DNA of 64,000 bases, taken from the IMG/VR virus record IMGVR_UViG_3300045988_149282, positions 1-64,000 of that record, one strand, 5' to 3'. The position numbers were made by a program, and so were the translations under genes. This DNA is from a virus (Duplodnaviria > Heunggongvirae > Uroviricota > Caudoviricetes). Under the pieces are notes generated by a model that did no database searches, was not told the DNA's origin, and was given only the letters and a program-made list of their open reading frames with translations. Below are positions 1,465-59,618 of this stretch, one piece after another (within the stretch, counting starts at the first letter, position 1; each line of letters begins with the position of its first letter).

Positions 1465-1551
1465 CACCCACCTCTTACCGCCAGGCTACCGAAGCACCCA
1501 CCTGTTCCCGTCCGGCTACCGAAGCACCCACCTGTTCCCGTCCGGCTACCG
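1465..1551. repeat. tandem direct repeats, ~3 copies of a 30-bp unit (iteron-like)
   Basis: CACCCACCTGTTCCCGTCCGGCTACCGAAG repeated head-to-tail (two near-identical copies plus one diverged, and a more degenerate copy at ~1438-1464) in the intergenic region. Confidence 0.7.
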
Positions 1552-4184: not shown

Positions 4185-4709
4185 TTAAAATGGAAGGATT
4201 CGTTCAACCCAATCGAAGAAAACAAGTATTTTTCTGCCGTCTTCTAACTTAAGAGTGACCTGGCAAGCATCAACGCCTCTTGACACCCCTTCAATTTCAC
4301 GACCGTCTGCCATGTAGACCCTTATAGATTGGTCGTTTTGATAAGCCTTGCGACATATCGCAAAAAAGTCACGGCGTGATGGCTGATTGTCAACATAGTC
4401 TGGATGTATTGTTAGCCTACCTTTGAACTCGCGAGCAATGCCATCGATTACACCTGATTCAATTGTGCTAATGCGCTCAAGTGGGAGTCTTATACGATTT
4501 TCTTTATCATATGGAAGCGGGCATAAATCTAGCTTATTGCGGGAAGGCATTGTCCCCTGAACGTACATGCAAAACACCTGACCGTCTTCAAGCGTGACTC
4601 TTACAGGAATGTTGTTCTTCCGCCAGAACATAAGTATGTTTTCAGCATGTTCGTAGTCTCGCGGCCAGACTTCAGCCGGTATGCCGTAGGTGATGTCCGA
4701 TGTTCTCAT
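4185..4709 (-). CDS. hypothetical cytoplasmic protein (174 aa)
   Basis: Minus-strand ORF; start overlaps the stop of the upstream gene (ATGA); hairpin terminator downstream at ~4148-4173. Confidence 0.55.
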   Translation of the reverse strand: MRTSDITYGIPAEVWPRDYEHAENILMFWRKNNIPVRVTLEDGQVFCMYVQGTMPSRNKLDLCPLPYDKENRIRLPLERISTIESGVIDGIAREFKGRLTIHPDYVDNQPSRRDFFAICRKAYQNDQSIRVYMADGREIEGVSRGVDACQVTLKLEDGRKILVFFDWVERILPF

Positions 4710-5299
4710 TCTGATACTCTTAGAGGTGTTTTCAGCAACCCAAATTTAAATTCTTTGTTACCAACGACAAAGAAGGGAACCTCAACATAGATTTTTTTAT
4801 CGACGGATTTAGAGTTCGCTGTTTTCTGTATGTCACGAACGATACGTTTTGAGGTATTTTCATCGATAAACAATACCTTTCCACTTGTATTCCCTTCAGC
4901 CTTGGCGTAAGTAACGATAGGCTCTTCATTGCCAACCCTAATGTTTACTTGGCAACCTGTTGTAGCCATTTCATCACAGTAAAGTGTGCCGTCTTGAACT
5001 TCCAAAACAATTCCAGATGGCTTCATGGCTTCGTCAGAGCTTACATTAACGTTTTCTGGTACAGCGGTCCCGTTAATTTGCAACCGTAATCTTTCTTTTC
5101 CTGCATTAAGTATTGTTTCTTCTGCGTTATCTGAGAATCTGAACCAGACTGGTTGAATCAGACCTCGTGATTCGTATTTTAGTACGTCTTCAGAAGTATA
5201 CATGCTGTACGTTTTTTGCATGTCGGAGACGATATCTGACAACGCATTTGCGGAAAATGACGAGAGGTATATACAAGCAAGAAGTAACGAACGTTTCAT
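4706..5299 (-). CDS. secreted/periplasmic protein with N-terminal signal peptide (197 aa)
   Basis: N-terminus MKRSLLLACIYLSSFSANA is a typical Sec signal peptide; translationally coupled to the 4185..4709 gene. Confidence 0.55.
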   Translation of the reverse strand: MKRSLLLACIYLSSFSANALSDIVSDMQKTYSMYTSEDVLKYESRGLIQPVWFRFSDNAEETILNAGKERLRLQINGTAVPENVNVSSDEAMKPSGIVLEVQDGTLYCDEMATTGCQVNIRVGNEEPIVTYAKAEGNTSGKVLFIDENTSKRIVRDIQKTANSKSVDKKIYVEVPFFVVGNKEFKFGLLKTPLRVSE

Positions 5300-5479
5300 T
5301 TTTATACAGCGATTATTGCAAAGTAGAATTATAAATATCCAATAGTCTCAAACGATAAGTTTTCAACTGTAAATAGCAGACTTGTTTCTCTAAAAGCTGT
5401 GCGGCAAAGGCGTTGTTGCCGCACTCTGTCTATTAGCTCTTCAAGTCTGGCAATTCTGAAATTGACTAAGAATCCAATA

Positions 5480-5758
5480 TTACGGCAGTTTGCTTAGAAT
5501 TTGCTCTAAATCTTCCTTTGTCATATTAGAGTTCTCATAGATGCGCATGATTTTCTCACGAGCCTTAGCAGAGACTCCAACGGCAGATGAAACTTTGTCA
5601 AATTCAGCCATTGTCATCGCTTCCAGAATGGTATTGATAACTTCAGCCTTAGACATTTTGATGTTTTTTTCTTTTAGTTTCATTTGAAACTTTCCAAGTT
5701 TGTCATTGGCCTTATCGGACAATGCCACCTGACAATAAGTTGTTTTCTTTTCGCTCAT
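5480..5758 (-). CDS. hypothetical small protein (92 aa)
   Basis: Minus-strand ORF starting 2 nt after the helicase stop; hairpin downstream at ~5397-5425. Confidence 0.5.
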   Translation of the reverse strand: MSEKKTTYCQVALSDKANDKLGKFQMKLKEKNIKMSKAEVINTILEAMTMAEFDKVSSAVGVSAKAREKIMRIYENSNMTKEDLEQILSKLP

Positions 5759-5760
5759 AA

Positions 5761-7320
5761 CTAATCTCGTTTCAGAACTCCAAAATCGAATGCGCCATCA
5801 ATAGGCAATACACCTTCTGCAAAGCCAGGTGTGGTGTCGATGATGTGTTTTCGCTCATAAGAGTGAGACAACAGGTATTTGTTGCTAATGTCAATGAAAT
5901 CAGTGATAAAACACACGTTTGCCTGATTCTTCTTGGCTCGTAAGCCACGACCGACACGCTGCCTCATTTCAACTTCTGCTTTCCCACCACCAGCCAGAAT
6001 GACCGCACCAACGCTTGGCACATCAACACCGACATCCAGAATAGTCGAGCCTATTAAAACATCTATTTCGCCAGACGCTAAACTGTTCAGCTTTGCTTGC
6101 CTTGTCGCCTGGTTTGATTCCCCATAGATGAAGTCAACTCTAAGGCCGGACTCCTTCATCATCTCCATCAGGATTTGCCCGTGGCGTTTAAGACGAACCA
6201 GAGTCATGCAATTGAGAGAATGTTGCTTATAGAGCAATGCTTCGCGCACAATGGCCTCGTTACGTCCCAAATTATACACGATCCCCAACTGATAAGCCTT
6301 TTGGTAGGCTGTGCTCATACCTACTCTAAAATTGAGGTGTTTGTTGGCAAGTTCGGCCTTGATTCTGGCCTCGTCTGGCTTGTAGGCAACTTTATGATAA
6401 AGGAAGTATGGTTTTGCCAGAATGCCTCTATCAATCAGGTACTTTTCCGTGACTTTTATTTCAATTCGCCCGGCCACTGCCATCAGGCGCATGTTGGCTT
6501 CCGTCGAATCCTTCATGAACGGCGTGGCTGTAAGCGCCAGACGATAGTCTGCGTTCACACATAATCTGGCGATGTCATAGAAATTAGAGCCTGAAGACTC
6601 ATGCGCCTCTTCCAGAATAAGAAGAGAGACACTTGAAAGGAAGCGTTTCACCAACTCCCGACGTTTGAGGTGGTAGCTTTTCTTATCTGGTGTTGCATCG
6701 CGTGGTGGTTCTTCGAGGAAACTTGCAAGAGTTTGAACTGTAGCGACGTTGATATGTCGTGATACCTGGAACTCACCCGAGCCAATTACTCCAACCTTTT
6801 GGTCCTTTAACCACGGTTCGCCATTTTCGGCGCGGTAGTCGATGGATCTCTGGAAGTTTTCGGCCATTTGAAACATCAGAACAGAGCGGGTTGTTAAAAA
6901 TAATGTCATTCGACCGATACGTGCAGTTGCTTTGCAGGCAACGTTAGATTTCCCGCCACCAGTAGCGATCTGCGCAATCATCATTCCCTCTCGAACCAGT
7001 GTTTCTACTGTCTGATCTTGGTACGCATAATCAGGGTTGTATGGAAATGGGTTAACCGCAGGATTTGGTTTACCCAGCGTCGGGGCTTTGTCTTTGCGGA
7101 TATGAACACATTTGATGCCCGCCTTGTTCAAATTAGCCGCCACGGGCTTGGCAAAGCCAGCAGGGAACGAGTTTTTGCTCCAGTTGAACATTGTGCTTGT
7201 GCCCTTCCAGTCGCCAGCCTCGACTTCGTAGCTCAACATTTGCTGCACCAGTTGCTTTACCTTGTCATCTGCGCCAGAAATAAGCGCATTTACTGCGTTA
7301 GATACAATCCGAACAGTCAT
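5761..7320 (-). CDS. superfamily-2 DNA/RNA helicase (DEAD/DEAH-box, ResIII-like)
   Basis: Walker A (ATGGGKS), DExH motif II (LILEEAHE), motif VI (QRVGRGLRA); RBS AAGGAAAGAGG before ATG at 7320. Confidence 0.85.
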   Translation of the reverse strand: MTVRIVSNAVNALISGADDKVKQLVQQMLSYEVEAGDWKGTSTMFNWSKNSFPAGFAKPVAANLNKAGIKCVHIRKDKAPTLGKPNPAVNPFPYNPDYAYQDQTVETLVREGMMIAQIATGGGKSNVACKATARIGRMTLFLTTRSVLMFQMAENFQRSIDYRAENGEPWLKDQKVGVIGSGEFQVSRHINVATVQTLASFLEEPPRDATPDKKSYHLKRRELVKRFLSSVSLLILEEAHESSGSNFYDIARLCVNADYRLALTATPFMKDSTEANMRLMAVAGRIEIKVTEKYLIDRGILAKPYFLYHKVAYKPDEARIKAELANKHLNFRVGMSTAYQKAYQLGIVYNLGRNEAIVREALLYKQHSLNCMTLVRLKRHGQILMEMMKESGLRVDFIYGESNQATRQAKLNSLASGEIDVLIGSTILDVGVDVPSVGAVILAGGGKAEVEMRQRVGRGLRAKKNQANVCFITDFIDISNKYLLSHSYERKHIIDTTPGFAEGVLPIDGAFDFGVLKRD

Positions 7321-7402
7321 AAACCTCTTTCCTTAGTGCCTTTTGTATGTTATTTGGCTATTATAATAAGTAAGTGATTACTTAGTGGATTGTAGCAATA
7401 AA

Positions 7403-8083
7403 ATGGACGTAAAAATCACGATTTTGCAGGTTGATGTTGCCAACCTTCGCCCGAATACCTGGAACACCAATTCGGTTGGTGCGCAGAATTTCGAAAAACT
7501 GAAAGGTTCTATCGAAAAATTGGGCTTTTTTAAGCCAATTTTGGCTCGTGAGCTTGAAGATGGATTTTTTGAAATCCTCGGCGGCGAACATCGCTGGCGT
7601 GCTGCTATTGAGCAAGGAATTTCAACGGTTCCTGTGCTTTCTGTGGGCAAAATTAGCGATGTCGTGGCAAAACAGATGTCACTGGTGGACAACGAGCGAT
7701 ACGGTGAAGACGACCAAATCGCATTGCAACGCTTCATTGAAGAAATTCAGTCAGAACTTGACTATCAACTGTCTGAAATCGCCCCGTATGACGACGAAAT
7801 CTCGATGGTTTTAGCAAAAGAGGCGGCAATCGACCTTGAAGCACTGGAGGCGTTGTCTCGTGGTAGTGATGAGCCTGTCGATACCGACAAACGAGAGAAA
7901 ACCGAACGTGTGGGTGCGGAACATCAGACCATGCGCTTCAAAGTAACTTTCGATGCGTCAGATCGTGTTGCAGAAACTATAAAAAACATCATCAAAGAGC
8001 AGGCTATTAACACCGGTAATGAAATGGAGAACGCTGGTGAGGCTCTGGTGTGGCTGGTCGACTACTACAAGGAGCGTATGTAA
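7403..8083 (+). CDS. ParB-like nuclease domain protein 1
   Basis: ParB/Srx N-terminal domain signature (...FEILGGEHRWRAAIEQGISTVPVL...); ORF track 7385 (GTG), first ATG at 7403. Confidence 0.75.
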   Translation: MDVKITILQVDVANLRPNTWNTNSVGAQNFEKLKGSIEKLGFFKPILARELEDGFFEILGGEHRWRAAIEQGISTVPVLSVGKISDVVAKQMSLVDNERYGEDDQIALQRFIEEIQSELDYQLSEIAPYDDEISMVLAKEAAIDLEALEALSRGSDEPVDTDKREKTERVGAEHQTMRFKVTFDASDRVAETIKNIIKEQAINTGNEMENAGEALVWLVDYYKERM

Positions 8084-8751
8084 TGACCAAAAAGTTTGAA
8101 ATCGTATATCGCGACCCGGCAGATCTTATTCCCTATGAGATGAATGCCAAAAAGCATGATGAACAGCAGATCAGAGATCTGGCCGCAGCCATTAAAAAGC
8201 GCGGATTTGACCAGCCAATTACGGTCGATAAGAACGACGTAATTATTACTGGCCACGGCCGCCGTGAGGCTGCAATTTTTGCTGGACTTGAGCGCGTACC
8301 GGTTATTGTTCGTGATGATCTGAGTGATGACGAGGTACGTGCAAAGCGCCTTGAAGATAACCGACTTGCCAGCATTGATTACGATGCAATTAAGCTACAG
8401 AAAGAGCTTGAGTCGCTTGTTCTGGACGATATCGAGGTTTTCGGCTTCGAAGAGCGTGAGTTGAATGTTCTCGTTGGCAGTATGACAGAAGAAATGGACA
8501 CCGACTCGCTAGTTATCGATCTTGGCGAAGAAACTAAACGACAGAAGGATGAACACACCGAGATCAGTCGTGAAGTTGCAGCGGAAGAAGTACGTGTTGT
8601 CGACGTATTGGGCTTTAAAACGCTTCCTGCTGGCTCTGCCATTGTTGTTGGTGATTTGCTTGCCCACATGGAAGAAATGACGGGAGAAAGCGGGGTAGAC
8701 GCATTTGTGGCATATGCGGAGAAGATCTCTTCCGGGGAGATGGCTGCATGA
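8083..8751 (+). CDS. ParB-like nuclease domain protein 2
   Basis: ParB box (VIITGHGRREAAIFAGLERVPVIV); start overlaps the upstream stop (TAATG) with AGGAG RBS; acidic C-terminal half. Confidence 0.75.
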   Translation: MTKKFEIVYRDPADLIPYEMNAKKHDEQQIRDLAAAIKKRGFDQPITVDKNDVIITGHGRREAAIFAGLERVPVIVRDDLSDDEVRAKRLEDNRLASIDYDAIKLQKELESLVLDDIEVFGFEERELNVLVGSMTEEMDTDSLVIDLGEETKRQKDEHTEISREVAAEEVRVVDVLGFKTLPAGSAIVVGDLLAHMEEMTGESGVDAFVAYAEKISSGEMAA

Positions 8752-9413
8752 GCAAATACATCATCAACGTATCGTTTCAGACACGCGTAAATAAAACCAC
8801 GCGCACGTTGGAAATCGCTGAGTCGTTCGGGCTTGGCCTGGACGAAAAAGAGTGGACGCTTTACGACAATCTGGAGCTGGAAGTGAAGCAGGGCGATGTG
8901 GTGTACATCACCGGCCAATCCGGTTCCGGCAAATCCGTTGTGCTGCGCGAGTTGCAACGACAGCTGAAGGATGAAGGGCTGTCTGTAGCCTCCATCGATG
9001 ATTTTACCTTCGATAATGAGGTTAACGTCATCGATCAGTTGGGCAAAACGACCAGCGATGCGCTTGGGTTGTTATCTATGGCTGGTCTGAACGATGCATA
9101 TCTGTTTGTTCGCAAGCCTTCTGAAATGTCAGACGGTCAGAAATATCGTCTCAAGATTGCCAAACTGATTGAGTCAGGCGCTAAAGTGTGGGCTGCTGAC
9201 GAGTTCGGTGCTGTTTTAGACCGTGTAACCGCTCAGGTTGTGGCATCTAACCTCCAGCGTGCCGCTCGAAAGGTTGGTGCGACGGTAATGGTGGCGACGA
9301 CTCACGAAGACCTGAAGAACGCGCTGCGCCCGGATATGCAGATCACCAAGCACTACAAAGAACGCGTGAAGGTGGAATATCACAATGGTAGTCATGATGA
9401 GGTCCATTCATGA
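8748..9413 (+). CDS. small ABC-type ATPase (P-loop NTPase)
   Basis: Walker A (GQSGSGKS), ABC-signature-like SDGQKYR, Walker B (VWAADEFGAVLD), H-loop-like TTHEDL; start overlaps upstream stop (ATGA). Confidence 0.65.
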   Translation: MSKYIINVSFQTRVNKTTRTLEIAESFGLGLDEKEWTLYDNLELEVKQGDVVYITGQSGSGKSVVLRELQRQLKDEGLSVASIDDFTFDNEVNVIDQLGKTTSDALGLLSMAGLNDAYLFVRKPSEMSDGQKYRLKIAKLIESGAKVWAADEFGAVLDRVTAQVVASNLQRAARKVGATVMVATTHEDLKNALRPDMQITKHYKERVKVEYHNGSHDEVHS

Positions 9414-10300
9414 CGGACATCATCATTAAACGCTACCGCCCTGAAGAGTTTCCGCGTCATCTGGACTTTCTGGAGCGAATGACTGTTACAAAGGGAACTG
9501 TAGAGGACTGGCACGCTCTTAAGTCGCTTCACTACAAAACAGACGGCAAACCTTTCGCGCCAACTTACTATCGCTGCGAACTTGATGACCGTCTGGTGGG
9601 CGTCGTGGTTATGGCTTACCCGAAACTACTGTTGGCACCTCGCCACCGCATGTTTCCTAAGTTGAAACCAACCACTAATACCACCGTGGCTAACCAGTAC
9701 TGGGGTCGGTACGTGAATAACAACTTTGCGGTGATCAGTCGCTCAGTTGTGGATACTCAGTATCGTGGCGTAGGCGTCTCTTATCGAATGATTAACCTGG
9801 TTAGCAGGATGCATGACCGGCCAATCATTGAGATCCAGTCATCGATGAGCAAATACAATCCCTTCGCCATGAAAGCAGGGTTCAAGTTCATCCGCCCTGA
9901 GCGACCGAAGAGCTATGAAAGTGCACTGCGTGTGTTCCAGCGCCATTTCCGTTCCGACCCGGGTGATAACGAGGCGATCGTCAAAGAGTTGTTCGCAATG
10001 AGCGAGTCTCGTCGTCGCCGTGCACTGCGTGATCTGGTGGCGGACTACCACAAGAACAGTTCCCTGGCAAAAGCTGGGCGGAATCGTGGCACGACGATTC
10101 AGGACATTGCCGACAGTCTGGTGGACGAGGCCAGCATTGTGAAGCTGCTCAAGGACATTCACAACCTGAGCTTTACGTCTCCGTTGTATGGTGTGTACCG
10201 AAACCCTGACTTTGGTCGTCGACTGCCTGACACGCTGCCACTGCTGGCATTCGACAAACAACCTTTGGATAAACCGTTAGAAATTGCTTTACCGGCATAA
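9410..10300 (+). CDS. hypothetical protein, possible GNAT-like acetyltransferase fold
   Basis: Translationally coupled (ATGA) to the ATPase; weak GNAT motif-A-like segment (QYRGVGVSYRMINLV). The fold assignment is tentative. Confidence 0.4.
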   Translation: MTDIIIKRYRPEEFPRHLDFLERMTVTKGTVEDWHALKSLHYKTDGKPFAPTYYRCELDDRLVGVVVMAYPKLLLAPRHRMFPKLKPTTNTTVANQYWGRYVNNNFAVISRSVVDTQYRGVGVSYRMINLVSRMHDRPIIEIQSSMSKYNPFAMKAGFKFIRPERPKSYESALRVFQRHFRSDPGDNEAIVKELFAMSESRRRRALRDLVADYHKNSSLAKAGRNRGTTIQDIADSLVDEASIVKLLKDIHNLSFTSPLYGVYRNPDFGRRLPDTLPLLAFDKQPLDKPLEIALPA

Positions 10301-10600: not shown

Positions 10601-10655
10601 CCTGCTTCTGTATATATAAATAATAAGTAACTTATTAAATATATACGGAAGCAGG
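10601..10655. repeat. 55-bp palindromic element, copy 1 (exact duplicate of 47001..47055)
   Basis: CCTGCTTCTGTATATATAAATAATAAGTAACTTATTAAATATATACGGAAGCAGG; near-perfect inverted repeat (one G-T position) centred on AATAAGTAACTTATT. Confidence 0.8.
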
Positions 10656-43715: not shown

Positions 43716-44135
43716 ATGCTAAATTATCATGACAATACGCGTTCTATGCAGACGATCCGCACCAATACTGCGGTTATCGACAGCTTTCCTATGCGTATTC
43801 ACAACAGTGAAGACGCAGTAGAAGTGCGACGTATGTTGTGCCGTGAATCAGCTAACCGCCAGCACTTCATCGTCACTTTTAAGAGCGATGTGGCGCGTGC
43901 CGAAAAGATCTCTAATTCTACGTCACTGGTTAAACCGTTGGCCGAGGTTGTCACTAACGGTAAACGAACCTCTTTTGTTTTAGATGTTGCTGAACAATAT
44001 CCTGACTTGAAGTGTTTAGATCGTGATATTTCTTCACGAATCAAACAAGTTGTAGAGTCTTTTATGAAGAAATTCTGTAAAATCGATGATATGGAACCAT
44101 CAACGGCACAGAATACTTCATGGCACCATCTCTAA
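43716..44135 (+). CDS. hypothetical protein (139 aa)
   Basis: ORF with AAGGTGG RBS after the hairpin-rich intergenic region 43480-43700. Confidence 0.5.
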   Translation: MLNYHDNTRSMQTIRTNTAVIDSFPMRIHNSEDAVEVRRMLCRESANRQHFIVTFKSDVARAEKISNSTSLVKPLAEVVTNGKRTSFVLDVAEQYPDLKCLDRDISSRIKQVVESFMKKFCKIDDMEPSTAQNTSWHHL

Positions 44136-44893
44136 TTGGTCAGGCGAACAGATTAATCCCTGAAATAGAAGACTACAGCAAGGTCTTGTCTGAAATGCCG
44201 AGAGCGACGAGAATTATCGCTCTCGGTGAGTTCTATTTTATCTCCCGAGGTTTCGATCTAATTCGATTTACCGAATACGAGCTTGTTGATTCGGCCTATG
44301 AACGCTGTATTGTTGGCGAGTGTCTTGAGTCATGTGATCCTGATTACCAAGAGCAGGAAGTTAAGCGACTCAAACGTGCTGGTTACACACCTCTTGAGAT
44401 AGGAGCAGAAATTGAATCCTACAAGTTGCATGTGGGGCAGCCAGTCCAAACAGTCTTCCGCGTGGCCTACTGCGAGTTTCCAATCAAGGATAAATCTGGA
44501 GTAAAAGTCAGCGCCAAGCAGATTAGAGGGGTTTTTACTCATGCTGATTATATGGGATTAGGCATCGCAAGTTTTGCTTACCTTTATCTCGTAGATAAGT
44601 ATCAGTACTTGGTTTGCGATACGTTACAGACGGTAAAAGGCGCAACTCTTTGGGCTGTGAGTATGCGCAAACATGGACTGGTCGAAATTTACGATACGAA
44701 GAACGAAAATTTTATAGAGGAATTGGGTGAGGATGCCTGTGGCGTAAGTGGTTTTATTCCGTGGGATATCGGTAAGTCTGACGGAGGCCAGATGCGAAGA
44801 CGTGAAGAGTGGGGGACTAATAAAATCAATCTCACCCCAGGTGCTTGTACTCATATAGTGAACATTCTGAGTAAACGATCTATGAATCAATAA
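44120..44893 (+). CDS. hypothetical protein (257 aa)
   Basis: ORF overlapping the upstream gene end; strong terminator follows (44893-44916). Confidence 0.5.
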   Translation: MAPSLIGQANRLIPEIEDYSKVLSEMPRATRIIALGEFYFISRGFDLIRFTEYELVDSAYERCIVGECLESCDPDYQEQEVKRLKRAGYTPLEIGAEIESYKLHVGQPVQTVFRVAYCEFPIKDKSGVKVSAKQIRGVFTHADYMGLGIASFAYLYLVDKYQYLVCDTLQTVKGATLWAVSMRKHGLVEIYDTKNENFIEELGEDACGVSGFIPWDIGKSDGGQMRRREEWGTNKINLTPGACTHIVNILSKRSMNQ

Positions 44894-44916
44894 ACCCGCT
44901 ACGGCGGGTTTTTTGT
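44893..44916 (+). terminator. Rho-independent terminator
   Basis: AACCCGC-TACG-GCGGGTT hairpin followed by a T-run at the end of the 44120..44893 ORF. Confidence 0.65.
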
Positions 44917-44990
44917 TATTAAGCCCACCTATGTACCTATCATTAAACCTTTACACCGCAGCCGTAGGCATTTAGGCTATATCACATATA

Positions 44991-45006
44991 AGAAAACAAG
45001 TTGTTT
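44991..45006 (+). promoter_or_regulatory. AGAAAACAAGTTGTTT motif upstream of parA
   Basis: Exact motif 36 nt upstream of the parA ATG; palindromic core AACAA-G-TTGTT. Confidence 0.5.
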
Positions 45007-45041
45007 CAGACGATAATTATATACGCAAAGGGAACTCTCCA

Positions 45042-45710
45042 ATGACCAAGATCTTTGTGGTTGGCGGCACAAAGGGCGGGCCTGGCAAATCCACCGTTGC
45101 CCAGCAAATTGCCGTTTGCCTGAAAGTCAAAAAGAAGAAGAAGGTTTATATTACCGATATAGATATTCAGCGCACGACAACGAGCTGGTGTGAAGACCGT
45201 CGACAGAACGAAGACCTTGAGCTGATTCCTTTTGCATACGTTCAGGATGACATCATTAAGCACCTAAAATCGCTTCAGGGTAGAGCTGAGTTTGTAGTGG
45301 TAGATGCTGGTGGCTTCGACTCCGAAATTCAGCGACAAGCGATGCTGATGGCTGACGTTATCATTATCCCGCTGCGTCCTAAGCGTCGTGATTTGAAATC
45401 TTTACGTGACATCGATCCTATTATCGACAATGTTCGCAATGTAAACGATAAAGTGAAGGTCCGCGCGGTCATGAACCAGTGCCCGGCTTTGCCATCACAA
45501 GTGTCTCGCATTCTGGCGGCTAAAGAGATTGTTGAGACGTTTGGCATCGAGTCTGCGCCAGTCAATCTATATAACCGCAACGTCTATGATGATGCGGAAG
45601 AGTCTGGTCGCTCTATCTTTGAAATGACCGGTAGCGAGCGCGACAAAAAGGCGGAAGCCGAGTTTGAAGAATTTGTAGATTATCTGTTGAGTCTGGAGGA
45701 AGAAGAATAA
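45042..45710 (+). CDS. parA: ParA/Soj-family partition ATPase
   Basis: Deviant Walker A (GGTKGGPGKST) typical of ParA/MinD; size ~222 aa suggests a type Ib ParA; conserved upstream motif AGAAAACAAGTTGTTT at 44991-45006. Confidence 0.85.
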   Translation: MTKIFVVGGTKGGPGKSTVAQQIAVCLKVKKKKKVYITDIDIQRTTTSWCEDRRQNEDLELIPFAYVQDDIIKHLKSLQGRAEFVVVDAGGFDSEIQRQAMLMADVIIIPLRPKRRDLKSLRDIDPIIDNVRNVNDKVKVRAVMNQCPALPSQVSRILAAKEIVETFGIESAPVNLYNRNVYDDAEESGRSIFEMTGSERDKKAEAEFEEFVDYLLSLEEEE

Positions 45711-46069
45711 TGTCCATGAAAATGGGTGACCTAGCAAAGCGCAAAGAGCCTGATGCACCGGCTAAGAACACAACTCCTTTGCGCCAACCAGTCAGACCAC
45801 AGGGACGCCCGACTCGTGGCAAAGAGAAAATTAAAAGCCGCACAATGTCACTGGAGGACGAATACTTCGAACTGCTGGAGATGATGAAGTTCATCCCTCG
45901 CTTCGAGAAGTTCACTCGTTCTGACGTGATTCGAGCAGCCATTTTCCATCTGGCAGAGAAGTCACCGCAGGAAATCGAGGACATCGTGAAATTGAATGAG
46001 GCGATCACCGCTGCCGATGTCACGATGCGTACCGATGAAATCAAACGAGAGTTGATGAAGAAAGGTTAA
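45710..46069 (+). CDS. partition partner protein (candidate centromere-binding protein, ParG/RHH-like)
   Basis: Start overlaps parA stop (TAATG); basic disordered N-terminus with structured C-terminal region, as expected for a small ParA partner. Confidence 0.5.
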   Translation: MSMKMGDLAKRKEPDAPAKNTTPLRQPVRPQGRPTRGKEKIKSRTMSLEDEYFELLEMMKFIPRFEKFTRSDVIRAAIFHLAEKSPQEIEDIVKLNEAITAADVTMRTDEIKRELMKKG

Positions 46070-46073
46070 AAAT

Positions 46074-46104
46074 CATGCATTGGCGCGTACATTGCGCCAA
46101 TGCA
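46074..46104. terminator. bidirectional terminator between convergent genes
   Basis: 12-bp perfect inverted repeat ATGCATTGGCGC / GCGCCAATGCAT with 7-nt loop between the partition operon (+) and the GIY-YIG gene (-). Confidence 0.6.
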
Positions 46105-46121
46105 TAACTACAGTGTCAGCT

Positions 46122-46889
46122 TTATGCCGCGCTAACACTATGTTCAGTCCTAACCACCCCAACCTTCACAAAAGGGCTACCGTAGCTTGGTGGCTTCTTG
46201 ATTAATTTGCCTACATACAGTTTTCTAATATGCTCATCGGCTATTCTGCCAACAAATTCATAACGTTTTGTGTCGGGGCCAAGAGCTATATCCCTTGTAA
46301 AGTACTGCTGAGAACCGGCTTTGACCCAGCATTCAATCTGATAAACTTCCATTATCAGCCCACCATATGTAGCGTAGGCATATTTGAGATTCTCGTCTCT
46401 TGGAACCTTTGCCCATACGCCACGCGTAGCTTCATATAATGCCAGAGCGGACATTCCTGACTTGTAGGTGCTGTTTAGCAGGAAGGCAAGACCGGCGTGC
46501 TCAGGAGCAATTTCAGTTTCCTCTTGCAGCACTAAGTGATGGTAGGCGTCCAGTGATATTCTGCCCATCATGGAACCACTTCCTCGTACCTTATTCGTAA
46601 GCTCTCCGACCCCCATAAGGTCGATGCATGTCGCCTCAACAAGTTTGGCTGTGGTTTCATCCATACCATGACGAAGTATATCTATGCCTAATTTTTTATT
46701 AGCCAAAAGTTCTTTGATCCGCATGGATTTGGGAGAGTCATCGGGATACTTGATGTGATCGAGACAACGAGTCGATTTGCCTTTTCCTATGTAAAACGGT
46801 CTTTTCATCTTGTCTTCTGTATCATAGAGACAGTAAACATAGTATTTAGCCTTATCCAATGATCTCGCGTATACCGATAAATCGTCCAT
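46122..46889 (-). CDS. GIY-YIG family nuclease (homing-endonuclease-like)
   Basis: N-terminal GIY-YIG-type motif (YYVYCLYD ... RPFYIGKGK ... R ... H); convergent with the partition operon and separated by a 12-bp-stem bidirectional terminator. Confidence 0.55.
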   Translation of the reverse strand: MDDLSVYARSLDKAKYYVYCLYDTEDKMKRPFYIGKGKSTRCLDHIKYPDDSPKSMRIKELLANKKLGIDILRHGMDETTAKLVEATCIDLMGVGELTNKVRGSGSMMGRISLDAYHHLVLQEETEIAPEHAGLAFLLNSTYKSGMSALALYEATRGVWAKVPRDENLKYAYATYGGLIMEVYQIECWVKAGSQQYFTRDIALGPDTKRYEFVGRIADEHIRKLYVGKLIKKPPSYGSPFVKVGVVRTEHSVSAA

Positions 46890-47000: not shown

Positions 47001-47055
47001 CCTGCTTCTGTATATATAAATAATAAGTAACTTATTAAATATATACGGAAGCAGG
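47001..47055. repeat. 55-bp palindromic element, copy 2 (exact duplicate of 10601..10655)
   Basis: Identical 55-mer located between the GIY-YIG gene and the replication module. Confidence 0.8.
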
Positions 47056-58514: not shown

Positions 58515-59618
58515 ATGAAAAATAGCTTTGACAGAGCACGCGCTGCGGAGAACACCTCAAAAGAGGCGATTGAGTATCTCGAAAGAGCATCTCAAATGCA
58601 GGCCGTTATGATCTCGCAGGTCAGCAATGACATGAGATTCTCGGACGCATTCATGTTATTCACTCGCTTATCTCTGCTGATAACAAGACGTCGGCCAGAG
58701 ATCGCTGTTCATTGTATTTTGATACATGTTTTGCCGCACATTGCCGATGTAAAAGTAAGTGACATTAATAGGTTCATGGTGAACCAACTGGTCAACCCAC
58801 TAATACTGGATGGCAAAATTGTTATGGGCCGCCGCGTTTTCTCTCTGATGAAGCAGTTCCTTAGCTGGTGCGCCTTCCAGGGGATGATAGACGTGTCACC
58901 GTTAAACGATATGTCACTAAACAAAGTTGCCGGTGGCGCAAAGCCTACACCTCGCGAGCGGAAGCTGACCGACGCAGAGGTATGGGTGTTCTGGAATATA
59001 TGGGACTACTTCAATGTGTGCGCTGGTACAAAATGGGCGGCCAGGCTGTGTCTTGTATCCGCAAGACGACCTGACGAAGTACTGCGGGCTAAAAAAAGTG
59101 AGTTCAATCTTAAGCGTGGGGTTTGGAATCAAGGCAAGAGGAACAAATCTGCCCGTGAGCATTCTCTGCCTTTAAGCTCATTAATGCGCACTTGTATTGA
59201 AGAGTTGTTCGAATATGGTAAAGACAGCCAGTGGCTCGTGCCTTCGAATAAAAAAATCGGGAAAGACCTTCCTATGTCTAAAGTGGCAATAGCCCAGGCA
59301 TTACGTCGTATTCTGGAACGACCAGAACTGATGGAGCTTGAGCCATTTACACCCCGAGATTTGCGCCGTACTGCGCGTAGTTACTTCCCAGCATTAGGCA
59401 TAAGCCAGGAGGTATCACGTAAAATCATGAACCACAGTCTTGAGGGGATAGATCGGGTCTACGACCGGCACGATTATATGGACGAGATGCGAGACGCCTT
59501 AGAAAGTTTCTCGACGTACATCGCATCAATCGTAGAGCAACCGGATTTAGACGAAATTGACCACAAATTTAAGGGAGATCGTCTATCAACAGAGCTTATT
59601 CGTGTAAATTTTTCATAG
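58515..59618 (+). CDS. tyrosine recombinase (phage integrase family)
   Basis: Catalytic-domain motifs: ARLCLVSARRPDEV (box I Arg), FTPRDLRRTARSY (H/RxxR region), RVYDRHDY (putative catalytic Tyr). N-terminal start uncertain. Confidence 0.75.
   Translation: MKNSFDRARAAENTSKEAIEYLERASQMQAVMISQVSNDMRFSDAFMLFTRLSLLITRRRPEIAVHCILIHVLPHIADVKVSDINRFMVNQLVNPLILDGKIVMGRRVFSLMKQFLSWCAFQGMIDVSPLNDMSLNKVAGGAKPTPRERKLTDAEVWVFWNIWDYFNVCAGTKWAARLCLVSARRPDEVLRAKKSEFNLKRGVWNQGKRNKSAREHSLPLSSLMRTCIEELFEYGKDSQWLVPSNKKIGKDLPMSKVAIAQALRRILERPELMELEPFTPRDLRRTARSYFPALGISQEVSRKIMNHSLEGIDRVYDRHDYMDEMRDALESFSTYIASIVEQPDLDEIDHKFKGDRLSTELIRVNFS

What the first reader, a model, noticed from the sequence alone, without database searches (positions are those of the whole stretch)
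45042..46069. ParA-type partition module inside a tailed-phage genome (plasmid-prophage signature)
A small ParA with the deviant Walker A (KGGPGKST) is followed, with overlapping stop/start, by a 119-aa basic protein resembling the partner of type Ib partition systems, and is preceded by the conserved AGAAAACAAGTTGTTT motif. With the phage-encoded helicase, primase, ligase and a tyrosine recombinase, this suggests the element can persist as a low-copy plasmid (as SSU5/pHCM2-type or P1/N15-type plasmid-prophages do) rather than only by integration. Membership of that group is inference from gene content alone.
Basis: partly seen in the sequence, partly recalled or inferred. Interest (0 to 1): 0.6.

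Follow-up and report, generated by a model that had tools for sequence, protein, structure and literature searches.

The report
Partition genes of an SSU5-type phage-plasmid

Summary
A 222-aa ParA (deviant Walker A KGGPGKST) at 45042-45710 overlaps by one base a 119-aa protein at 45710-46069, and AGAAAACAAGTTGTTT lies at 44991-45006.

The locus is 99.7% identical to E. coli plasmid pSLy3, 98-99.6% to three E. coli phage records and 86.5% to Salmonella phage SSU5. In 5,426 complete E. coli genomes, all 301 copies lie on plasmids and none on a chromosome. The plasmid-prophage reading is therefore supported, and it is already in the literature (SSU5 supergroup, pSLy3 group).

ParA's nearest solved relative is ParF of TP228, a type Ib partition ATPase.

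The partner belongs to a tiny family (18 clusters among 1.84 billion proteins). It always sits directly after such a ParA. It has a basic disordered N-terminal half with an invariant tip, and a core that looks like a ribbon-helix-helix, which is not proven.

The motif is not par-specific. It is a 13-bp palindrome at about +5 of many promoters, and pMT1, which lacks this cassette, keeps it. The 55-bp palindromes and 30-bp repeats are not centromere candidates either.

The centromere is unidentified. The best guess is the highly conserved 107-bp leader.

The parts
44892..44911 (+). Intrinsic terminator of the upstream gene (44120..44893). It isolates the par operon from read-through.
   Evidence: The terminator scan finds a stem AAACCCGC-TACG-GCGGGTTT followed by a T run. 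It is conserved in SSU5, L005, L006 and L007, and absent where the upstream neighbour differs.
44935..45041 (+). Highly conserved 107-bp par leader: the left edge of the mobile cassette, the promoter, and the best candidate for operator and centromere.
   Evidence: Alignments from hundreds of plasmids with different upstream genes begin at query position 35-37, which is about 44935. From about 44935 to 45006 only 3 of about 72 bases differ from pJN2-26, which is about 80% identical over the whole query.
44950..44978 (+). Putative sigma-70 promoter: TTTACA (44950-44955), a 17-nt spacer, then TAGGCT (44973-44978). A second TAGGC box lies 8 bp upstream at 44965-44969.
   Evidence: A -35-like hexamer (TTTACA, TTGTCA or TTGTTT), a 17-nt spacer and an invariant TAGGCT are kept in all SSU5-supergroup lineages sampled. 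TTTACA-N17-TAGGCT is also kept in L011 (read by eye), and L012 has TTTACA-N17-TAGTAT. The site is below the strict consensus scanner's threshold (8 of 12). The promoter assignment is inference.
44994..45006 (.). A 13-bp palindrome AAACAAGTTGTTT (core AAACA-N3-TGTTT) at about +5 to +20 of the par promoter. It is one copy of a dispersed regulatory element of the phage backbone.
   Evidence: There are about 11 intergenic sites in the window, each 8-11 nt after a TAnnnT hexamer and 20-50 nt before an ATG. SSU5 has 20 sites per 100 kb. pMT1 has 6 sites against 0.2 expected, although it lacks this ParA and partner.
45042..45710 (+). parA: a small ParF-like (type Ib) Walker-type partition ATPase of 222 aa.
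   Evidence: Pfam hits MipZ, AAA_31, CbiA and ParA. PHROG 164 'ParA-like partition protein' scores E=4e-51. The best PDB matches are ParF of TP228, 4dzz and 5u1g, at E=1e-10. Walker A KGGxGKS, DxDxQ, DAGG and an RPKRRD stretch are invariant down to 40% identity.
45710..46069 (+). Partner gene (119 aa): the proposed centromere-binding and ParA-activating adaptor. Residues 1-47 form a basic disordered tail with an invariant MGDLAK tip. Residues 41-84 form the putative ribbon-helix-helix. Two further helices follow.
   Evidence: Its family, PHROG 5111, has no known function. There are only 18 cluster representatives among 1.84 billion proteins. In all 10 lineages measured it lies within -8 to +10 nt of a 221-229 aa ParA. 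The AF2 models are described. The RHH hints are sub-threshold.
46071..46109 (.). Hairpin (ATGCATTGGCGC-N7-GCGCCAATGCAT) between the convergent par operon and the GIY-YIG gene. It is probably a terminator and lies outside the conserved cassette.
   Evidence: The palindrome scan finds it only in the window and in PhiR41_1. Alignments to Cyrano, SSU5 and the Klebsiella elements stop at about 46062-46070.

Best explanation
The region 44935-46069 is the plasmid-partition cassette of an SSU5-supergroup (pSLy3-group) phage-plasmid. It is a type Ib-like system.

Shown here:
- The element is carried as a circular plasmid of about 110 kb and not integrated.
- ParA is an intact small ParF-like Walker ATPase.
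- The 119-aa gene is co-inherited with ParA and is probably translationally coupled to it.

Inferred:
- The partner dimerises through a ribbon-helix-helix-like core (about residues 41-84) and binds DNA in the conserved leader. That site would serve both as the operator that autoregulates the operon and as the centromere.
- The partner's disordered basic tail presents the conserved N-terminal MGDLAK(R/K) peptide to ATP-bound, nucleoid-associated ParA dimers.
- This stimulates ATP hydrolysis, so sister plasmids move apart on the ParA gradient, as with ParF/ParG of TP228.

The AAACAAsTTGTTT palindrome just downstream of the par promoter places the operon under a backbone-wide phage regulator. It is not the par-specific site.
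For: Lifestyle:
- All 301 places lie on plasmids of 264 complete E. coli genomes, and none on a chromosome.
- There are 737-774 PLSDB plasmids across Klebsiella, Escherichia, Enterobacter, Salmonella and other genera.
- The closest record is pSLy3, which is circular. Relatives 98-99.6% identical are deposited as phages.
- The SSU5 supergroup and pSLy3 group are described as phage-plasmids in PMC7969092 and PMC12977533.

ParA:
- ParF is the nearest solved structure.
- The catalytic motifs are invariant.
- At 222 aa the protein has only the Walker fold, which matches the small class of 200-230 residues described in PMC5393062.

Partner:
- Synteny and tight junctions hold in every lineage down to 26% identity.
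- Partner identity falls together with ParA identity, and faster. PMC3074162 says type Ib centromere-binding proteins are extremely divergent.
- Residues 1-47 are predicted disordered and have pI 11.4.
- The MGDLAK tip and I41, R44, S47, E49, R70, D72 and R75 are conserved.
- Pfam RHH_1 aligns to exactly the proposed strand and two helices in P0027 (E=0.005, 17.1 bits against a 20.5 cut-off). The NCBIfam aCcr1 family gives E=2e-4; that aCcr1 is an RHH family is from my own knowledge.

Cassette:
- The leader plus the two genes move as one unit with fixed ends among different neighbours.
Against: - No repeat array of the kind that defines known type Ib centromeres was found in the leader. There are only two TAGGC boxes and one palindrome.
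- NCBIfam's ParA_partition equivalog cut-off is not reached (115.7 against 180 bits).
- No experiment on this locus was found in the searchable library.
- The element also encodes two ParB_N-domain proteins elsewhere.
Confidence: 0.75

Rival explanations
1. ParA's true centromere-binding partner is one or both of the ParB_N-domain proteins encoded 37 kb away (7385..8083 and 8050..8751; the first corresponds to SSU5_125, annotated 'ParB-like partition protein'). The 119-aa protein would then be only a transcriptional regulator or accessory factor.
For: - Both proteins hit Pfam ParB_N (E=3e-13 and 1.5e-8).
- The first resembles Spo0J, ParB and Noc structures (E=3e-9).
- SSU5_125 is annotated as a partition protein.
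- 'parB' is used as an SSU5 marker gene in 10.1101/2025.09.12.675607.
Against: - Both proteins start almost directly in the ParB_N domain. They have no N-terminal extension of the kind that carries the ParA-activating peptide in canonical ParBs.
- No HTH family match was found.
- They sit in a block with an ABC-type ATPase and a DEAD-box helicase next to the terminase genes.
- pMT1 keeps that block at 88% identity, although it has no homologue of this ParA and uses a large type Ia ParA with its own ParB.
- The 119-aa gene never separates from this ParA.
Confidence: 0.08
2. The dispersed 13-bp palindromes (AAACAA-S-TTGTTT) are the partner's binding sites. The partner would then be both centromere-binding protein and global regulator, and the centromere would be multi-copy and scattered, as with the N15 sop sites, KorB/OB of RK2 or omega of pSM19035.
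For: - A palindrome lies in the par leader of every SSU5-supergroup lineage sampled.
- The half-sites are 8 bp apart centre to centre. From my own knowledge this is compatible with two adjacent RHH dimers.
- There is precedent for partition genes acting on phage gene expression in N15 (the paper's title is cited in PMC11652158). That N15 has dispersed centromere sites is from my own knowledge.
Against: - pMT1 lacks ParA and the partner, yet keeps 6 palindromes against 0.2 expected, including at the terminase and CobT-like promoters.
- The par leaders of L011, L014 and L015 have no palindrome, although the partner's putative DNA-reading strand is conserved there.
- The fixed position just after a -10-like hexamer points to transcriptional control.
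Confidence: 0.1
3. The ParA/partner pair does not segregate the plasmid. It would serve a phage-cycle function instead, such as positioning replication or packaging, or excluding competitors. Stable inheritance would then rest on copy number, toxin-antitoxin modules and multimer resolution.
For: - Several relatives carry GNAT/KacT-type toxin-antitoxin pairs next to the cassette.
- No classical centromere array was found.
- PGAP often names the ATPase 'MipZ'.
Against: - ParA's closest characterised relative is a plasmid partition ATPase.
- The cassette is found in 737-774 plasmids of this supergroup across many genera.
- In pMT1 it is absent, and a P1-type partition system is present instead, which suggests functional equivalence.
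- These elements are large plasmids described in the literature as low-copy, for which random segregation is insufficient (10.1101/2025.09.12.675607; established knowledge).
Confidence: 0.05

Closest known systems
pSLy3 / SSU5 / pHCM2 phage-plasmids (SSU5 supergroup; Pfeifer et al. 2021, PMC7969092)
   Same: The window is the same element type. The par locus is 99.7% identical to pSLy3 and 86.5% to SSU5. The synteny is the same: lysis genes, parA, partner, DnaB-like helicase, primase, ligase. All copies are extrachromosomal.
   Different: Differences are only local mosaicism. A GIY-YIG gene with its 55-bp palindrome lies downstream of the cassette here and in PhiR41_1, where SSU5 and Cyrano carry other genes.
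ParF-ParG-parH of plasmid TP228 (type Ib partition)
   Same: Both have a small Walker-only ParA; ParF is the nearest solved structure here. In both, a small partner is encoded immediately downstream, with a disordered N-terminal tail followed by a putative RHH. The expected centromere or operator lies upstream (PMC5393062, PMC3130281).
   Different: ParA is only about 23% identical to ParF. The partner shows no detectable homology to ParG, is longer (119 against 76 aa) and has two extra C-terminal helices. No array of tetramer boxes like parH is present upstream.
pCXC100 ParB and omega of pSM19035 (other type Ib RHH centromere-binding proteins)
   Same: These show that type Ib centromere-binding proteins can lack recognisable sequence motifs yet be RHH dimers with flexible N-terminal domains (PMC3074162). 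Omega also doubles as a regulator (my own knowledge).
   Different: Those proteins bind 7-10 tandem 7- or 9-bp repeats. No such array exists here, and the RHH fold is unproven here.
P1 parABS and pMT1 parABS (type Ia), and N15 sopABC
   Same: All share the biological role of segregating a plasmid prophage. pMT1 belongs to the same supergroup and carries a type Ia system in place of this cassette.
   Different: Type Ia ParA proteins are about 400 aa with an N-terminal HTH, and they pair with a ParB-family HTH protein. None of these features is present in this cassette.

Membership tests
SSU5-supergroup / pSLy3-group phage-plasmid | High nucleotide and gene-repertoire similarity to reference members (pSLy3, SSU5, pHCM2) | tested here: met
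   The par locus is 99.7% identical to pSLy3 (NZ_CP015915.1) and 86.5% to SSU5. The 24-kb stretch 40000-64000 is 95% covered at 98.7% identity by an E. coli plasmid of 112 kb. The formal wGRR or tyPPing assignment was not run.
SSU5-supergroup / pSLy3-group phage-plasmid | Maintained extrachromosomally as a plasmid | tested here: met
   There are 301 places on plasmids and none on chromosomes in 5,426 complete E. coli genomes. The plasmid records inspected are all circular: pSLy3, four other SSU5-type plasmids and pMT1.
SSU5-supergroup / pSLy3-group phage-plasmid | Complete tailed-phage gene set, and recovery as virions | tested here: met
   Relatives 98-99.6% identical at this locus are deposited as phages (PhiR41_1, CMS-2020a, Cyrano). 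Tail, lysis and terminase genes are syntenic. Virion production by this particular element cannot be tested here. One pSLy3-type strain (166F4) was reported as not packaged (PMC12977533).
Type Ib (ParF-like) partition ATPase | Small size (about 200-230 aa): Walker fold only, no N-terminal HTH domain | tested here: met
   The protein is 222 aa, and the Walker A motif starts at residue 8.
Type Ib (ParF-like) partition ATPase | Deviant Walker A with signature lysine, plus Walker A' and Walker B | tested here: met
   KGGPGKST, DIDIQ and VVDAGG are invariant in 10 lineages down to 40% identity.
Type Ib (ParF-like) partition ATPase | Significant sequence similarity to characterised members | tested here: met
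   ParF of TP228 (4dzz, 5u1g) scores E=1.2e-10 over residues 9-199.
Type Ib (ParF-like) partition ATPase | Reaches the NCBIfam NF041546 ParA_partition equivalog cut-off | tested here: not met
   It scores 115.7 bits against a cut-off of 180. It is a divergent subfamily, not an equivalog of the curated set.
Type Ib (ParF-like) partition ATPase | ATP-dependent dimerisation, nucleoid binding, and partner-stimulated ATPase | not testable with these tools
   These are biochemical properties.
Type Ib RHH centromere-binding protein (ParG / omega / pCXC100 ParB type) | Encoded immediately downstream of parA in the same operon | tested here: met
   The junction runs from -8 to +10 nt in all 10 lineages examined.
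Type Ib RHH centromere-binding protein (ParG / omega / pCXC100 ParB type) | Flexible N-terminal tail that contacts ParA | tested here: inconclusive
   Residues 1-47 have pLDDT of about 40-55 and no secondary structure. They have pI 11.4. The [ML]G[DG]L[AG]K tip is conserved. The interaction itself was not tested.
Type Ib RHH centromere-binding protein (ParG / omega / pCXC100 ParB type) | Dimeric ribbon-helix-helix DNA-binding fold | tested here: inconclusive
Type Ib RHH centromere-binding protein (ParG / omega / pCXC100 ParB type) | Sequence homology to ParG | tested here: not met
   hhalign of the family profile against ParG (sequence verified as 1p94) gives probability 0.1. PDB profile and sequence searches give no hit below E=0.4.
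Type Ib RHH centromere-binding protein (ParG / omega / pCXC100 ParB type) | [quoted passage not shown] | tested here: inconclusive
   The upstream leader is highly conserved. It contains only two TAGGC boxes 8 bp apart and one 13-bp palindrome, with no array. No embedded element showed up in a synonymous-site scan.
ParABS with ParB-CTPase (type Ia / chromosomal) | Partner carries a ParB_N (CTPase) domain plus an HTH domain, with an N-terminal ParA-activating peptide | tested here: not met
   The adjacent partner has no ParB_N or HTH match. The two distant ParB_N proteins lack an N-terminal extension, and pMT1 retains them without this ParA.

The most novel reading that the evidence does not exclude
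The 119-aa partner founds an undescribed family of type Ib centromere-binding adaptors, restricted to this lineage. It would work without a classical repeat-array centromere, for example through one or two boxes embedded in the par promoter (TAGGC-N3-TAGGC). Its DNA-binding fold is not recognisable by current sequence or structure searches.
Probability: 0.25. Interest if true: 0.45.

Novelty: already known. Interest (0 to 1): 0.22.

Why it matters
SSU5-type phage-plasmids are common in clinical Enterobacteriaceae. The par locus was found in 264 of 5,426 complete E. coli genomes, and these elements can carry resistance genes (PMC9600943).

Their stable inheritance is assumed to rest on this ParA, but the cassette has not been dissected in anything I could find. 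The partner is annotated 'hypothetical', or mis-annotated as a RelE/ParE toxin in phage Cyrano. In SSU5 it is called too short.

Recognising it as the probable centromere-binding adaptor, and delimiting the mobile cassette to 44935-46069, gives a compact fragment for stability, incompatibility and curing experiments.

As a discovery the finding is ordinary. It re-identifies a known plasmid-prophage family from its gene content.

Tried and rejected
1. 55-bp palindrome (47001-47055; second copy at 10601-10655) as parS: rejected. It occurs only in the window and PhiR41_1, together with the GIY-YIG gene. It is absent from Cyrano, SSU5, pJN2-26 and all divergent loci.

2. 30-bp repeats (1465-1551) as parS: not supported. 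They are 43 kb from the cassette. The unit is single-copy at two sites in SSU5 and single-copy in pMT1, which lacks the cassette.

3. AGAAAACAAGTTGTTT as a par-specific site: rejected.

5. Sequence and profile searches of the partner against the PDB and hhalign against ParG gave no match.

6. A deep profile search for distant partner relatives (1.84 billion representatives) returned only 18 clusters. No known family was reached.

7. A synonymous-site conservation scan for a centromere hidden inside parA or the partner gave no credible signal. The apparent peak at 45866-45913 is an artefact of amino-acid-divergent columns.

8. The strict sigma-70 scanner found no promoter in the leader. The TTTACA-N17-TAGGCT assignment rests on phylogenetic conservation only.

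9. CCTA/TAGG boxes with 8-bp periodicity as a parH-like array: only the box inside the -10 is conserved in the divergent lineages, so this was not pursued.

10. The Cyrano annotation 'RelE/ParE putative toxin' for the partner has no support in Pfam, NCBIfam or PHROGs.
Full report
**1. Observation**

- ORF 45042..45710 (+) encodes 222 aa beginning MTKIFVVGGTKGGPGKST. This is a deviant Walker A box with the signature lysine.
- ORF 45710..46069 (+) encodes 119 aa. Its ATG shares one base with the ParA stop (TAATG), and a GGAGG lies 10 nt upstream.
- The 119-aa protein has pI 9.56. The charge is confined to residues 1-47 (pI 11.4); the rest is acidic.
- AGAAAACAAGTTGTTT lies at 44991-45006. With up to 3 mismatches it gives 18 strand-matches in the window, against 1.02 expected.

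**2. What the element is**

- The 1.2-kb locus is 98-99.6% identical to Escherichia phages PhiR41_1, CMS-2020a and Cyrano, and 86.5% to Salmonella phage SSU5.
- It matches 737-774 PLSDB plasmids from Klebsiella, Escherichia, Enterobacter, Salmonella, Citrobacter and Cronobacter. Almost all are non-mobilizable and about 105-125 kb.
- The best hit, at 99.7%, is pSLy3 itself, a circular 114-kb plasmid. pSLy3 names one of the four groups of the SSU5 supergroup of phage-plasmids (PMC7969092; PMC12977533).
- In 5,426 complete E. coli genomes the locus occurs in 264 genomes at 301 places. All are on plasmids and none on a chromosome.

It is also already known.

**3. ParA**

- Pfam, PHROGs and NCBIfam all place it among ParA/MinD-type ATPases.
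- The nearest solved structures are ParF of TP228 (4dzz, 5u1g; E=1.2e-10), at about 23% identity.
- It has no N-terminal HTH domain, so it belongs to the small, Walker-only class (PMC5393062).
- It does not reach NCBIfam's equivalog cut-off (115.7 against 180 bits), so it is a divergent subfamily.
- Walker A, A' and B, and a distinctive RPKRRD stretch, are invariant in ten lineages down to 40% identity.

**4. The partner**

- It has no Pfam family and belongs to PHROG 5111, of unknown function.
- The family is tiny. The word-indexed search found 25 proteins, and an exhaustive profile search of 1.84 billion representatives found 18 clusters.
- Every member whose context I could read lies directly after a 221-229 aa ParA, in SSU5-like synteny between the lysis genes and the DnaB-like helicase. 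Junctions run from -8 to +10 nt, even at 26-31% identity.
- Partner identity falls together with ParA identity, but faster. PMC3074162 notes that type Ib centromere-binding proteins are extremely divergent.
- Conserved features are the N-terminal [ML]G[DG]L[AG]K tip, a basic PQGRPTRGK stretch, and I41, R44, S47, E49, R70, D72, R75 and L81.
- Two AF2 models agree on a disordered region 1-47 and helices at 48-59, 70-82, 86-97 and 101-118.
- The segment SRTMSLEDEY...FTRSDVIRAAI has the pattern of a ribbon-helix-helix. Pfam RHH_1 aligns to exactly that segment in P0027 (E=0.005, below threshold). NCBIfam aCcr1 gives E=2e-4, also below its cut-off.
- Structure searches found nothing, and there is no detectable homology to ParG.

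I therefore treat the RHH as probable (about 0.55) and not shown. The layout is the one described for ParG, where Gly16 and Arg19 of the tail contact ParF (PMC5393062): a disordered ParA-contacting tail, then a small dimeric DNA-binding domain. Cyrano's annotation 'RelE/ParE toxin' has no support. The SSU5 annotation starts the gene too late.

**5. The motif**

- AAACAA-S-TTGTTT is a 13-bp palindrome. Its roughly 11 intergenic copies in the window each lie 8-11 nt after a TAnnnT hexamer and 20-50 nt before a start codon.
- These positions include the promoters of the helicase gene, the terminase operon and the CobT-like gene. The motif therefore sits at about +5 of many promoters.
- SSU5 has 20 copies per 100 kb.
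- The decisive test is pMT1 of Yersinia pestis. It shares the phage backbone but has no homologue of this ParA or partner, and carries a type Ia ParA/ParB pair instead. It still has 6 copies, against 0.2 expected, at orthologous promoters.
- Conversely, the par leaders of L011, L014 and L015 lack the palindrome, although the partner's putative DNA-reading strand is conserved there.

The motif is therefore a backbone-wide regulatory site bound by something other than the partner.

**6. The rival partner**

- SSU5_125 is annotated 'ParB-like partition protein'.
- The window has two tandem ParB_N-domain genes (7385..8083 and 8050..8751), followed by an ABC-type ATPase. A DEAD-box helicase gene lies divergently upstream, and the terminase operon lies downstream.
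- Both proteins begin almost at the ParB_N domain, with no N-terminal peptide and no HTH match.
- pMT1 keeps the block at 88% identity without this ParA.

I consider them part of the phage backbone and unlikely partners for this ParA (about 0.08).

**7. The centromere**

- Alignments from hundreds of plasmids with different neighbours start at about 44935 and end at about 46065. Examples of neighbours are the KacT/GNAT toxin-antitoxin pairs in Cyrano, E. fergusonii and Cronobacter.
- The cassette therefore moves as leader plus two genes, and any linked cis site should lie inside it.
- The 107-bp leader is more conserved than the coding sequence. Only 3 of about 72 bases differ from pJN2-26, which is about 80% identical over the whole query.
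- It holds a conserved -35-like hexamer, a 17-nt spacer and an invariant TAGGCT. A second TAGGC lies 8 bp upstream, or 8 bp downstream in L007. The palindrome follows.
- There is no repeat array like parH (PMC3130281) or the nine repeats of pCXC100 (PMC3074162).
- A synonymous-site scan found no hidden element in the genes.

The centromere remains unidentified. The leader is the best guess (about 0.4).

**8. Verdict**

The window is a pSLy3-type SSU5-supergroup phage-plasmid, and the flagged genes are its partition cassette.

What is not in the literature I could search:
- the assignment of the 119-aa protein as the type Ib adaptor;
- the delimitation of the mobile cassette;
- the demonstration that the nearby motif is not par-specific.

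These are modest additions. Interest is low (0.22).

Noticed in passing
window 131, 1038, 1089, 1605, 4220, 5733, 10694, 10719, 44994, 47924, 60529 (13-bp sites): The palindrome AAACAA-S-TTGTTT is dispersed at about +5 of many promoters: early genes, helicase, terminase operon and the CobT-like gene. SSU5 has 20 copies per 100 kb, and pMT1 keeps 6. This looks like the operator set of an unidentified global regulator of the SSU5 backbone, comparable in layout to the P1 C1 operators or the KorB OB sites.
   Followed up: partly
window 7385-10300: Two tandem ParB_N-domain genes (7385..8083 and 8050..8751), an ABC-type ATPase (8748..9413) and a 296-aa ORF lie between a divergent DEAD-box helicase gene (5761..7320, minus strand) and the terminase operon. 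pMT1 keeps the block at 88% identity. Its function is unknown. It could act in packaging or regulation, and could conceivably be the palindrome-binding factor.
   Followed up: partly
window 10601-10655 and 47001-47055: A 55-bp AT-rich palindrome with GC clamps (CCTGCTTC...GAAGCAGG) occurs in two copies. The copy at 47001 accompanies the GIY-YIG (LEM-3-like) gene at 46122..46889 (minus strand). That gene is an insertion relative to SSU5 and Cyrano, so the pair may be a homing-endonuclease-type mobile cassette.
   Followed up: partly
window 7359, 12658, 14164, 16081, 26118, 47139, 50573, 51447, 54094, 57979: A second dispersed palindrome family of the form (G)ATAAGTA-N(3-5)-TACTTAT(C), distinct from the first. 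Several copies lie just before genes (for example 47139 before ORF 47163 and 51447 before ORF 51473). It may be a second class of promoter or operator.
   Followed up: no
window 1465-1551: A 30-bp unit (CACCCACCTGTTCCCGTCCGGCTACCGAAG) is repeated 2.9 times in tandem. It lies just upstream of a promoter-plus-palindrome site and inside a dubious 56-aa ORF. The unit is single-copy at two sites in SSU5 and once in pMT1. Its role is unknown.
   Followed up: partly
window 4188-4709 (- strand): This ORF is a full-length match to Pfam Flag1_repress (FljA, repressor of phase-1 flagellin; E=5e-81). SSU5 and pMT1 annotate the equivalent gene as a transcriptional repressor or regulator. It is an unexpected cargo or regulatory gene for a phage-plasmid.
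   Followed up: no
L002 (Cyrano) 4991-5825; L021 1-777; L022 1-711: In several relatives a GNAT/KacT-type toxin with a DUF1778 antitoxin lies immediately upstream of the par cassette, where the window has two ORFs of unknown function (43716..44893). Maintenance modules therefore cluster at this position.
   Followed up: no
SSU5 record 31231-31521 (L009 3850-4140); NZ_CP027864.1 (L019 2383-2607): The partner gene is annotated too short in SSU5 (96 aa) and in a Klebsiella plasmid (74 aa). It is labelled 'RelE/ParE putative toxin' in phage Cyrano. The full-length ORF abutting parA is conserved in all three.
   Followed up: yes
window 58515-59618: A tyrosine recombinase (Phage_integrase, E=3e-10) lies in a variable region. 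pMT1 has a site-specific integrase at a comparable place. Because no chromosomal copies of the element were seen, multimer resolution is a more likely role than integration. This is inference.
   Followed up: no
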